Source: Octopus sinensis (lineage: Eukaryota). Taken from it: DNA of 8,091 nucleotides. A program made the position numbers. The stretch covers positions 1-8,091 of the forward strand of contig NW_021827830.1 of NCBI RefSeq assembly GCF_006345805.1, in the 5' to 3' direction. How positions within the stretch are numbered: the stretch's first letter is position 1; every line of letters starts with the position of its first letter. Positions 5,520-6,885 of the stretch are shown here, piece after piece.

Positions 5520-6847
5520 TTAATAAGGGTGAGAGAATTAGATACTAATTTAATAGTATATCTATTCAACACCAAGTGGCCTAGTGCTCCGAGAAACCTG
5601 GATTATTATAATATTTTATAATATATTATAATATTTTTACAAAATAATATAAGAGAATTTGCCCTGTCCGTGTGAGCTAACAATCGTACTGACTTTCATG
5701 GGAAACATGTATTTTTGTGGTTGAAACCTTTTGGATTAACTGGTGCTAGAGTGAGCCATATAGTGACCACTCTCTATATTTATTTTGTAAAATATTATAA
5801 ATATTTAAAATATTATAATAATCCGGTTTCTCGGAGCACTAGGCCACTTGGTGTTGAATAGATATACTATTAAATTAGTATGTAATTCTCTCACCCTTAT
5901 TAATTAATTATAATTATGCTGCATTTATTTCTAAATGCTGTATTTGTTTTCCGTGAAAGTTTGGCGCGCTGTTAGTTGGGGCATTTGAATTATAACGTCG
6001 GATGTAATCAATTGAACCACACGCGTATTTATCGTTATGGTAAAATCTGGCGTGTGATTGAGTGGATTTCATCCAGATAGTTTTGGCTGACGAGCTACAA
6101 GTGGATTTTTTTGTAAGTAAAATTACATTTAATTCATTAATAGCGAAACAATTGTCCCAAAATAATCTGTATTTTTGTTATTTTTTATTTGCCCTGTCCG
6201 TGTGAGCTAACAATCGTACTGACTTTCATGGGACCATGTATTTTTTTGTTGTTGAAACCTTTTGGATTAACTGGTGCTAGAGTGAGCCTATAGTGACCAC
6301 TCTCTATATTTATTTTGTAAAATATTATAATATATTATAAAATATTATAATAATCCAGGTTTCTCGGAGCACTAGGCCACTTGGTGTTGAATAGATATAC
6401 TATTAAATTAGTATGTAATTCTCTCACCCTTATTAATTAATTATAATTATGCTGCATTTATTTCTAAATGCTGTATTTGTTTTCCGTGAAAGTTTGGCGC
6501 GCTGTTAGTTGGGGCATTTGAATTATAACGTCGGATGTAATCAATTGAACCACACGCGTATTTATCGTTATGGTAAAATCTGGCGTGTGATTGAGTGGAT
6601 TTCATCCAGATAGTTTTGGCTGACGAGCTACAAGTGGATTTTTTTGTAGTAAAATTACATTTAATTCATTAATAGCGAAACAATTGTCCCAAAATAATCT
6701 GTATTTTTGTTATGTTTTATTTGCCCTGTCCGTGTGAGCTAACAATCGTACTGACTTTCATGGGAAACATGTATTTTTGTGGTTGAAACCTTTTGGATTA
6801 ACTGGTGCTAGAGTGAGCCAATAGTGACCACTCTCTTATATTTATTT

Positions 6848-6885
<38 letters not shown>

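What the first reader, a model, noticed from the sequence alone, without database searches (positions are those of the whole stretch)
5657..6848. Tandem hammerhead ribozymes predict a 532-nt self-cleaved (retrozyme-like, possibly circular) RNA
Seen: two complete type I hammerhead motifs on the + strand, one per ~531-bp non-coding unit. All core nucleotides and all three stems are present, and the GUC cleavage sites at 6156 and 6688 are 532 nt apart. Established: type I hammerheads in tandem repeats characterise Penelope-like pseudo-LTRs and metazoan non-LTR retrozymes, whose multimeric transcripts self-cleave to monomers that can circularise. Inference: this is a non-autonomous ribozyme retroelement in a probable cephalopod genome, with a monomer longer than the few-hundred-nt units I know of. 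The family may be undescribed, but I cannot confirm that.
Basis: partly seen in the sequence, partly recalled or inferred. Interest (0 to 1): 0.88.

Follow-up and report, generated by a model that had tools for sequence, protein, structure and literature searches.

The report
Hammerhead-ribozyme tandem retroelement in octopus DNA
A short non-coding repeat of 532 bases carries a self-cutting hammerhead RNA motif in each unit and looks like a member of the known animal "retrozyme" class of parasitic elements, here apparently in an octopus genome.

Summary
Two type I hammerhead motifs lie on the + strand. Their predicted cleavage sites are after C6156 and C6688, 532 nt apart, inside a head-to-tail repeat of 530-533 bp (5657-6846). 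My descriptor finds exactly these two sites and expects 0.001 per shuffled window. Rfam Hammerhead_1 scores 30.0 and 30.1 bits, under its cut-off of 34, and only in narrow searches. The shortfall coincides with a 43-nt hairpin inserted in loop 2.

Helix III has only 2 bp and lies in an 8-nt palindrome, so the ribozyme probably cuts as a dimer.

The unit is non-coding, 32% G+C, and strongly self-paired as a + strand circle (z -6.6).

It also missed that (TA)n tracts flank the whole insertion. Both are described hallmarks of integration by Penelope-like elements. No reverse transcriptase is in the window.

Best reading: a non-autonomous non-LTR retrozyme, a new member of a known kind. The 532-nt unit is not exceptional, since published consensus lengths run from 51 to 972 bp. 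Cleavage, circularity, copy number and covariation could not be tested.

The parts
5438..5514 (.). Left flanking (TA)n microsatellite, the probable target sequence
   Evidence: Tandem Repeats Finder: period 2, 39 copies. It abuts the outer end of the inverted copy.
5511..5656 (-). Inverted, 5'-truncated partial copy of the unit. It is the reverse complement of unit positions about 6300-6445.
   Evidence: Inverted repeat of 5506-5651 with 6305-6450: 146 nt, 95% complementary. blastn: unit 145-289 matches 5656-5511 at 97.3%.
5657..6156 (+). Unit 0. It starts 31 nt after the cleavage-site position and runs to cleavage site 1.
   Evidence: 98.0% identity to unit 1 over 505 columns by blastn. Alignments.
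6074..6169 (+). Hammerhead ribozyme 1 (type I) with extended helix I. Core CUGACGA at 6087-6093, GAAA at 6145-6148, predicted cleavage after C6156.
   Evidence: Descriptor hit. Rfam Hammerhead_1 30.0 bits, E 4.2e-6. Fold z-score -5.26.
6098..6140 (+). 43-nt insertion in loop 2 of hammerhead 1. It folds as an imperfect hairpin on top of the 4-bp helix II.
   Evidence: Shown as an insertion in the Rfam alignment. Hairpin predicted.
6148..6155 (+). Palindrome ACAAUUGU. It gives a 2-bp helix III in the monomer or an 8-bp intermolecular helix III in a double hammerhead.
   Evidence: Direct reading. Constrained cofold gives -47.2 kcal/mol for the dimer against 2 x -18.2 for monomers, and the 8-bp helix forms.
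6157..6688 (+). Unit 1, the complete 532-nt monomer between the two predicted cleavage sites.
   Evidence: Circular MFE -144.2 kcal/mol against -105.9 (sd 5.8) for 100 shuffles, z -6.59. 32% G+C. Longest stop-free stretch is 49 codons on +.
6305..6355 (+). AT-rich tract inside the unit (4% G+C). The inner end of the inverted copy and the right end of the array both fall at its edge.
6607..6701 (+). Hammerhead ribozyme 2. CUGACGA at 6620-6626, GAAA at 6677-6680, predicted cleavage after C6688.
   Evidence: Descriptor hit. Rfam Hammerhead_1 30.1 bits at 6614-6694. Fold.
6689..6848 (+). Unit 2, 3'-truncated. It ends in the unit's AT-rich tract, before the position where a third ribozyme would lie.
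   Evidence: Alignments. Boundary printout.
6837..6889 (.). Right flanking (TA)n microsatellite.
   Evidence: Tandem Repeats Finder: period 2, 28 copies. Boundary.

Best explanation
The locus is one insertion of a non-autonomous, non-coding retroelement of the animal 'non-LTR retrozyme' type. It is probably derived from Penelope-like elements (PLEs) and mobilised by them.

Shown here:
- It is a 532-bp unit repeated head to tail about 2.2 times.
- Each unit that reaches the ribozyme position carries a complete type I hammerhead on the + strand (2 of 2).
- It has no ORF with a family match and has low G+C.
- The + strand RNA is strongly self-paired.
- An inverted truncated copy sits at the upstream end, and (TA)n lies on both sides.

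Inferred:
- A multimeric + strand transcript cuts itself after C6156 and C6688.
- Cutting most likely goes through a double hammerhead, in which the ACAAUUGU palindromes of two ribozymes form an 8-bp helix III.
- A host RtcB-type ligase can circularise that RNA.
- A PLE reverse transcriptase and endonuclease copies a circular or multimeric RNA into a nicked (TA)n target.
- Both target strands prime synthesis on AT-rich parts of the RNA. That would explain the direct array, the inverted copy, and why neither end of the array coincides with a cleavage site.
For: Hammerhead: with details under the observation check.

Tandem unit.

Non-coding: 0 of 39 stop-to-stop ORFs of 60 aa or more reach a Pfam curated cut-off, and none matches a reverse transcriptase or GIY-YIG family. 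The longest stop-free run on the circularised monomer is 49 codons on + and 72 on -.

Composition and fold: G+C is 32%. The circular + strand MFE has z -6.59 with 0 of 100 shuffles as stable, against -106.4 kcal/mol for the - strand.

One polarity only: 0 hammerhead hits on the - strand, and no other ribozyme family on either strand.

Insertion architecture: inverted copy and (TA)n flanks.

Literature:
- Type I hammerheads in low-GC tandem repeats without LTR, PBS or PPT define non-LTR retrozymes. These give self-paired circular RNAs, and RtcB ligates them in vitro (PMC7229834, passages).
- A short helix III capped by a palindromic loop implies dimeric action (PMC4209133, passages).
- PLE insertions are partial tandems, often carry an inverted 5'-truncated copy at the 5' end, and are biased to microsatellites including (TA)n (PMC8557442, passages).
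- Retrozymes are related to PLE pLTRs, and their consensus lengths run from 51 to 972 bp (preprint 10.64898/2026.07.22.740005).
- Penelope-like families are annotated in Octopus vulgaris (PMC13282606, passages).
Against: - Both Rfam scores (30.0 and 30.1 bits) are below the curated cut-off of 34. The standard whole-window scan finds nothing.
- Helix III has 2 bp. Nearest-neighbour folding does not form it in the monomer.
- The MFE of the isolated motif pairs GACGA of the core with UUGUC at the cleavage site: -27.3 kcal/mol against -18.2 with the core kept free. The unconstrained homodimer cofold does not give a double hammerhead either.
- Only two near-identical ribozyme copies are available, so conservation under divergence and covariation are untested.
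- There is no transcript evidence, no other genomic copy, and no PLE ORF in the window.
- The first ~100 nt of the unit alternate a-b-a. 5657-5758 equals 6719-6820 at 100%, while 6187-6288 differs. Rolling-circle copying of a single monomer circle does not predict this. It needs a multimeric or dimeric template or later DNA-level exchange.
- The (TA)n flanks could have grown from the unit's own AT-rich tract.
- The inverted copy could be a replication fold-back or an assembly artefact at AT-rich DNA.
Confidence: 0.66

Rival explanations
1. It is a truncated insertion of an autonomous Penelope-like element. On this reading the window shows only the terminal, ribozyme-bearing (pLTR or 3' UTR) part of a coding PLE, and there is no separate non-autonomous family.
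For: PLE insertions are heavily 5'-truncated, form partial tandems, often carry an inverted 5'-truncated copy, prefer microsatellites, and hold hammerheads in their pLTRs (PMC8557442; PMC4209133). The locus shows all of these.
Against: The repeat period is 532 bp, and more than two periods are present. In a PLE partial tandem the period is the whole element, with a main body of 3.4-4.4 kb for Naiads. No RT or GIY-YIG remnant occurs in any of the 39 ORFs of the window. The hammerhead has the 'canonical' 6-bp helix I and 4-bp helix II layout that PMC7229834 assigns to retrozymes, where metazoan PLEs carry the minimal variants.
Confidence: 0.15
2. It is a ribozyme-bearing satellite or minisatellite that is amplified and maintained only at the DNA level by unequal crossing-over, slippage or fold-back at AT-rich DNA. 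Its transcripts may be processed, but there is no retrotransposition.
For: Newt and cave-cricket hammerhead repeats were first described as satellite DNA (PMC2837043, passages; PMC7229834). The alternating a-b-a unit variants and the breakpoints at an AT-rich tract fit DNA-level exchange.
Against: There are only about 2.2 units, bounded sharply by microsatellite and carrying an inverted truncated copy. That is the described signature of PLE-type integration. Current literature treats such repeats as retrozymes.
Confidence: 0.1
3. It is a chance or decayed motif. The sequence matches the hammerhead pattern, but the RNA does not cleave.
For: The score is below the Rfam cut-off. Helix III is weak, and a more stable alternative pairing sequesters the core. 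There is a large loop-2 insertion. PLE-type hammerheads tested in vitro cleaved poorly (PMC4209133).
Against: Chance expectation is 0.001 per window for my descriptor, and E is about 3e-4 when scaled to the window for Rfam. Every core position, the G10.1-C11.1 pair and the palindromic helix III are present. The motif sits once per unit of a tandem repeat, which is its typical context.
Confidence: 0.05

Closest known systems
Metazoan non-LTR retrozymes of coral, mussel and axolotl (Cervera and de la Pena 2020, PMC7229834)
   Same: A type I hammerhead occurs once per unit of a low-GC, non-coding head-to-tail repeat. Helix I has 6 bp and helix II 4 bp, with a short palindromic helix III. The predicted RNA is strongly self-paired. 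The ribozyme is on one polarity only.
   Different: The unit is 532 nt against the ~170-400 nt reported there. Loop 2 carries a 43-nt hairpin insertion, so the usual loop 1-loop 2 contact cannot be assumed. The array is very short at about 2.2 units. Expression and circularity were not examined here. The host is apparently a cephalopod, which none of the passages I read mention.
Penelope-like elements and their pLTR hammerheads (PMC4209133; PMC8557442)
   Same: Both show a partial tandem structure, an inverted 5'-truncated copy at the upstream end, insertion in (TA)n, a type I hammerhead near the repeat end, and a palindromic helix III that implies dimeric action.
   Different: There is no RT or GIY-YIG ORF in the window. 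The repeat period is 532 bp, not kilobases. The hammerhead has a canonical layout, unlike the 'minimal' variants described for metazoan PLEs (long helix II of 7-8 bp, bulged base, helix I of 4-5 bp).
Hammerhead satellite repeats: newt satellite 2 (~330 bp) and Dolichopoda pDo500
   Same: Both are tandem genomic repeats whose multimeric transcripts are cut to monomers by a hammerhead. Double-hammerhead action has been proposed for them (PMC2837043; PMC7229834).
   Different: Those are long arrays, while this is a short, bounded insertion. The ~500-bp length of pDo500 is my recollection and rests on its name. It was not in the passages I saw.
Plant LTR retrozymes (PMC4918200, search listing and abstract only; described in PMC7229834)
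   Same: Both are non-autonomous, ribozyme-delimited elements with a circular RNA intermediate of comparable size (600-1000 nt).
   Different: Plant elements have type III hammerheads in ~350-bp LTRs, PBS and PPT, G+C above 55%, and are mobilised by Gypsy elements. None of this applies here.

Membership tests
Hammerhead ribozyme, type I (Rfam RF00163) | Conserved core: CUGANGA, GAAA, and a UH cleavage dinucleotide, in that order | tested here: met
   Read directly. Descriptor hits at 6087-6156 and 6620-6688.
Hammerhead ribozyme, type I (Rfam RF00163) | Three helices around the core with helix I open (type I topology) and a G10.1-C11.1 pair | tested here: met
   Helix I has 7 pairs in the descriptor (6 Watson-Crick plus one G-U) and helix II has 4. 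Helix III has only 2 pairs. G6094-C6144 is the 10.1-11.1 pair.
Hammerhead ribozyme, type I (Rfam RF00163) | Score at or above the family's curated gathering threshold (34 bits) | tested here: not met
   30.0 and 30.1 bits. There was no hit in the whole-window scan. In the printed alignment the model treats part of loop 2 as an insertion and mispairs helix II. I read the 43-nt loop-2 insertion as the cause of the shortfall, but did not test that.
Hammerhead ribozyme, type I (Rfam RF00163) | Site-specific self-cleavage | not testable with these tools
   This needs in vitro transcription and mapping of the ends.
Hammerhead ribozyme, type I (Rfam RF00163) | Conservation of the core and covariation of the stems among homologues | not testable with these tools
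   Only two near-identical copies are in the window. No eukaryotic nucleotide collection was available.
Metazoan non-LTR retrozyme | A type I hammerhead in every tandem unit (the definition of an 'active' retrozyme in preprint 10.64898/2026.07.22.740005) | tested here: met
   2 of 2 units that include the ribozyme position carry a complete motif. The third unit is truncated before that position.
Metazoan non-LTR retrozyme | Head-to-tail repeat with a unit of a few hundred bp | tested here: met
   Spacings are 530-533 bp. This is outside the 150-450 bp of PMC7229834 and inside the 51-972 bp of the 2026 preprint.
Metazoan non-LTR retrozyme | Low G+C (below 45-50%) and no coding capacity | tested here: met
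   G+C is 32%. No Pfam family for any ORF. Stop-free runs are at most 49 codons on + and 72 on -.
Metazoan non-LTR retrozyme | No LTRs, primer-binding site or polypurine tract | not tested
   The 532-bp unit itself is the only direct repeat in the array. PBS and PPT were not searched for.
Metazoan non-LTR retrozyme | Monomer RNA predicted to be highly self-paired | tested here: met
   Circular MFE is -144.2 kcal/mol with 65% of bases paired and z -6.59 against 100 shuffles.
Metazoan non-LTR retrozyme | Expressed as linear and circular unit-length RNAs | not testable with these tools
   No transcriptome data were available.
Metazoan non-LTR retrozyme | Multiple dispersed genomic copies and coexistence with autonomous PLEs | tested here: inconclusive
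   Copy number is untestable here. Penelope-like families are annotated in O. vulgaris (PMC13282606), but the host assignment rests on one protein hit.
Autonomous Penelope-like element | An ORF with reverse transcriptase and GIY-YIG endonuclease | tested here: not met
   0 of 39 ORFs of 60 aa or more in the 8091-bp window match such a family at E<=0.1.
Autonomous Penelope-like element | Insertion architecture: partial tandem, inverted 5'-truncated copy upstream, microsatellite target | tested here: met
   compared with the description in PMC8557442.
Viroid-like or HDV-like replicating circular RNA | Ribozymes in both polarities | tested here: not met
   0 hammerhead hits on the - strand. No other ribozyme family on either strand.

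The most novel reading that the evidence does not exclude
This may be a currently active, cephalopod-specific retrozyme family that standard annotation has missed. Its hammerhead carries a 43-nt hairpin inside loop 2, which drops it below the Rfam cut-off.

The locus may also preserve a twin-primed integration event. On that reading both strands of a nicked (TA)n target primed reverse transcription on AT-rich parts of a circular or multimeric RNA about three units long. That would be direct structural evidence that the Penelope-like integration machinery mobilises retrozymes from templates that were not cut at the ribozyme site.
Probability: 0.25. Interest if true: 0.55.

Novelty: new member of a known kind. 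Interest (0 to 1): 0.36.

Why it matters
Retrozymes are a simple route to abundant circular RNAs in animals, independent of splicing. How they are mobilised is still argued from co-occurrence and sequence similarity with Penelope-like elements.

A non-coding ribozyme array with the full Penelope-type insertion signature is a small but concrete piece of structural support for that link. That signature is an inverted truncated copy, (TA)n flanks, and ends that do not coincide with the cleavage sites.

The locus would also extend the class to cephalopods. Their genomes are rich in repeats, and I found no report of hammerhead repeats in them in the searchable library.

It also shows a practical gap. 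A complete hammerhead with an expanded loop 2 is invisible to a routine Rfam scan.

Tried and rejected
Rfam at gathering thresholds on the whole window gave 0 matches. Rfam at E<=10 on 5400-7000 gave 8 matches, all in the (TA)n/(CA)n tract or weak, and no hammerhead. Only 121-nt searches recovered Hammerhead_1. I read this as filter loss plus the insertion penalty, not as absence.

Unconstrained folding does not give the active conformation. The MFE pairs part of the core with the cleavage site. The unconstrained homodimer cofold (-60.4 kcal/mol) keeps that pairing. The double hammerhead appears only when the core is kept unpaired. Nearest-neighbour models ignore the tertiary structure of the core, so I do not treat this as decisive either way.

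ARAGORN found 0 tRNA genes in the window, so no tRNA-like promoter module was found.

Pfam on all 39 stop-to-stop ORFs of 60 aa or more gave no family at its curated cut-off. The weak matches (E 0.008-0.09) are unrelated families.

Rejected readings:
- Plant-type LTR retrozyme, because the ribozyme is type I and there are no LTRs.
- Viroid-like replicon, because there is no ribozyme on the - strand.
- The 238-bp direct repeats at 2851-3088 and 7695-7932 as LTRs of the element. They carry no hammerhead and I found nothing that links them to the array.

- Any search of eukaryotic genomes or transcriptomes. The collection genome contigs holds bacteria and archaea only and was not used. Copy number, insertion sites, linkage to PLE ORFs, covariation and expression therefore stayed unchecked.
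- Reading supplementary files of papers, which were not opened. Supplementary tables and figures of PMC7229834, PMC4209133 and the 2026 preprint may list species, possibly cephalopods, or hammerhead variants that bear on novelty.

The statement that cephalopod hammerhead repeats are not in print rests on three searches only:
- (hammerhead, retrozyme, octopus): 97 papers held at least 2 terms and 25 were listed. Two held all three terms. For PMC8557442, the passages shown (12 of 22 places, none showing the word octopus) describe no octopus hammerhead. For PMC10886601 I saw the search listing and the start of its abstract only.
- One search was uninformative, because its ranking was dominated by cephalopod papers without the ribozyme term.
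- ('hammerhead ribozyme' and 'cephalopod'): 4 papers, 2 listed, neither on this subject by title and abstract.
Subscription journals are not covered.
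Full report
WHAT IS THERE

The window has 8091 bases, 34% G+C and no N. Between two (TA)n microsatellites (5438-5514 and 6837-6889) lies a repeat structure with three parts.
- 5511-5656 is an inverted partial copy of the unit.
- 5657-6846 is a head-to-tail array of about 2.2 units, with start-to-start spacings of 530-533 bp.
- Tandem Repeats Finder did not list the array because its longest period is 500.

The units are very similar.
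- Unit 0 (5657-6156) against unit 1 (6157-6688) has 495 matches, 2 mismatches and 7 gap events in 505 columns.
- The inverted copy against unit 1 has 146 matches, 3 mismatches and 3 gap events in 152 columns.

THE RIBOZYME

On the + strand each unit that reaches this position carries a complete type I hammerhead. Copy 1 reads as follows.
- Helix I pairs 6081-6086 with 6157-6162. The fold prolongs it by a G-U pair, an A.A mismatch and five more pairs.
- The core CUGACGA lies at 6087-6093.
- Helix II has 4 bp (6094-6097 with 6141-6144) and begins with the G10.1-C11.1 pair.
- GAAA lies at 6145-6148.
- Helix III consists of A15.1-U16.1 and C-G around an AAUU loop.
- The triplet is GUC, with predicted cleavage after C6156.
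- Copy 2 differs by one missing A in the distal hairpin of helix II, and its cleavage site is after C6688.

A descriptor that I wrote asks for helix I of at least 5 bp, helix II of at least 4 bp, helix III of at least 2 bp and an exact core. It finds exactly these two sites on +, none on -, and 2 hits in 2000 dinucleotide shuffles of the window. With relaxed stems the expectation is 0.012 per window.

Rfam gives a mixed result.
- The whole-window scan at curated thresholds is empty.
- A 1.6-kb scan at E<=10 is also empty for hammerheads.
- 121-nt scans give Hammerhead_1 over the full model (positions 1-45) at 30.0 and 30.1 bits, with E about 4e-6.
- That is 4 bits under the cut-off of 34.
- The printed alignment shows a long insertion in loop 2 and a misaligned helix II. 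By direct reading, the insertion between the two strands of helix II is 43 nt (6098-6140). I take that insertion to be the reason for the shortfall.
- The Rfam membership criterion is formally not met. The motif is nevertheless far from chance.

HOW THE RIBOZYME PROBABLY WORKS

The layout is a 6-bp helix I, a 4-bp helix II and a 1-2-bp helix III capped by a small palindromic loop. Cervera and de la Pena describe this layout as the canonical metazoan type I hammerhead. They say such a helix III prevents efficient cleavage by a single motif and lets two nearby motifs form an active dimer (PMC4209133, passages). Axolotl retrozymes with this helix III cleaved poorly as monomers and much better as dimeric constructs (PMC7229834, passages).

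Here A6148-U6155 reads ACAAUUGU, an 8-nt palindrome. With the core kept unpaired, two copies cofold to -47.2 kcal/mol against 2 x -18.2 for the monomers, and they form the 8-bp intermolecular helix III.

Without that constraint, the MFE pairs GACGA of the core with UUGUC at the cleavage site (-27.3 kcal/mol). I read this as a possible 'off' state of the unit-length RNA, but it equally counts against activity. It is an inference, because the energy model does not see the tertiary structure of the core.

The loop-2 hairpin moves the loop away from helix I. The usual loop 1-loop 2 contact therefore cannot be assumed. I did not test whether the internal loop above helix II could replace it.

THE UNIT

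The 532-nt monomer is 32% G+C. Its longest stop-free run is 49 codons on + and 72 on - when read as a circle. None of the window's 39 stop-to-stop ORFs of 60 aa or more reaches a Pfam cut-off, and none matches a reverse transcriptase or GIY-YIG endonuclease.

As a circle the + strand folds to -144.2 kcal/mol with 65% of bases paired. The mean of 100 shuffles is -105.9 (sd 5.8), giving z -6.59. The - strand folds to -106.4.

This matches the 'highly self-paired' retrozyme RNAs of PMC7229834. There is no ribozyme of any Rfam family on the - strand, so this is not a viroid-like replicon with two ribozyme polarities.

The top strand at 5511-5656 is the reverse complement of unit positions about 6300-6445. 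Its 6445 end abuts the left (TA)n. Its 6300 end joins unit position 6188 of the direct array at 5656/5657.

The direct array ends on the right at unit position about 6316, where it runs into (TA)n. Neither end of the array lies at a ribozyme cleavage site. The array begins 31 nt after one and ends about 158 nt after another.

Both ends that touch (TA)n lie in AT-rich stretches of the unit. The tract 6305-6355 has 4% G+C.

Craig et al. describe PLE insertions as follows (PMC8557442, passages):
- They are heavily 5'-truncated partial tandems.
- They have a strong bias to microsatellites, (TA)n among them, which hides target-site duplications.

The locus has all three features. The geometry is what twin priming would give. 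The bottom-strand nick primes on the AT-rich tract and copies leftwards through 2.2 units. The top-strand nick primes on the AT-rich stretch near 6445 and copies to about 6300. This step is my inference and is not shown.

The template was then an uncut multimer or a circle, not the cleaved linear monomer.

One observation does not fit simple rolling-circle copying of one monomer circle. The first ~100 nt of the unit alternate a-b-a. 5657-5758 is identical to 6719-6820, while 6187-6288 differs by substitutions and indels. This points to a multimeric or two-unit template, or to later exchange.

HOST AND PARTNERS

A LINE-like ORF tail at 1030-1185 matches one protein at 86% identity, and its source names it Octopus vulgaris. 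It was 1 hit among 14 candidates.

A 2026 repeat annotation of O. vulgaris lists Penelope-like families (PMC13282606, passages). Penelope is among the abundant families of coleoid cephalopods (PMC8967140, passages). Possible autonomous partners therefore exist if the host is an octopus.

COMPARISON AND NOVELTY

The locus works like, and by architecture belongs with, the metazoan non-LTR retrozymes (PMC7229834). A 2026 preprint derives these from PLE pLTRs (10.64898/2026.07.22.740005; abstract, first part of Results and passages).

The features I could test are met: a type I hammerhead in each unit, a tandem non-coding unit, low G+C and a self-paired RNA. Expression, circularity and copy number could not be tested. 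Membership of the autonomous PLEs fails on the ORF criterion.

The 532-nt length exceeds the 170-400 nt of the 2020 paper. It lies within the 51-972 bp of the preprint, whose Actinopterygii average is 650 bp. It is also below plant retrozymes at 600-1000 nt (abstract of PMC5680766, search listing).

I found no paper in the searchable library that describes hammerhead repeats in cephalopods. Supplements and subscription journals were not seen.

I therefore rate it a new member of a known kind. It has two modestly unusual traits: the loop-2 hairpin that hides it from Rfam, and a clean PLE-type insertion signature on a non-coding array.

VERDICT

- Confidence that this is a genuine hammerhead-bearing tandem element of the retrozyme/PLE lineage is about 0.65-0.7.
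- Confidence that it still cleaves and circularises in vivo is lower, perhaps one in three.
- Interest is moderate to low, because specialists expect such elements in invertebrate genomes.

Noticed in passing
window 1-945: A 206-bp tandem repeat with 4.6 copies and 97% matches, cut by the start of the window. It has no hammerhead and no Rfam family. Its ORFs have no Pfam family at cut-off.
   Followed up: partly
window 1030-1282: The tail of a LINE-like ORF (1030-1185) matches one protein at 86% identity, which its source names Octopus vulgaris. An (AACT)n-like tail follows at about 1258-1282. This is probably the 3' end of a non-LTR retrotransposon. The element type is my recollection of such tails and was not tested.
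   Followed up: partly
window 2851-3088 and 7695-7932: A 238-bp direct repeat, 98% identical and 4844 bp apart, brackets the ribozyme array. The flanks on both sides are unrelated. It may be a dispersed short repeat or the ends of a larger composite. It carries no hammerhead.
   Followed up: partly
window 5657-5758, 6187-6288 and 6719-6820: The first ~100 nt of the unit alternate a-b-a. The outer two copies are 100% identical, and the middle one differs by substitutions and indels. This is unexpected for rolling-circle copying of a single monomer.
   Followed up: partly
window 5656/5657 and about 6846: The inner end of the inverted copy (unit position ~6300) and the right end of the direct array (unit position ~6316) fall within about 16 nt of each other in unit coordinates. 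Both lie at the edge of a tract with 4% G+C. This could be a shared priming or breakage hotspot.
   Followed up: partly
window 1480-1850 and 4005-4130: These stretches look to me, from memory, like tRNA-derived SINEs that are common in octopus genomes. ARAGORN finds no tRNA there.
   Followed up: no
window 1866-2039, 2132-2174, 3643-3671 and 5110-5146: The window has many microsatellites: (TA)n with an embedded 33-bp period repeat, (ATAC)n, (TG)n and (AC)n. The ribozyme element sits in a microsatellite-rich neighbourhood.
   Followed up: no
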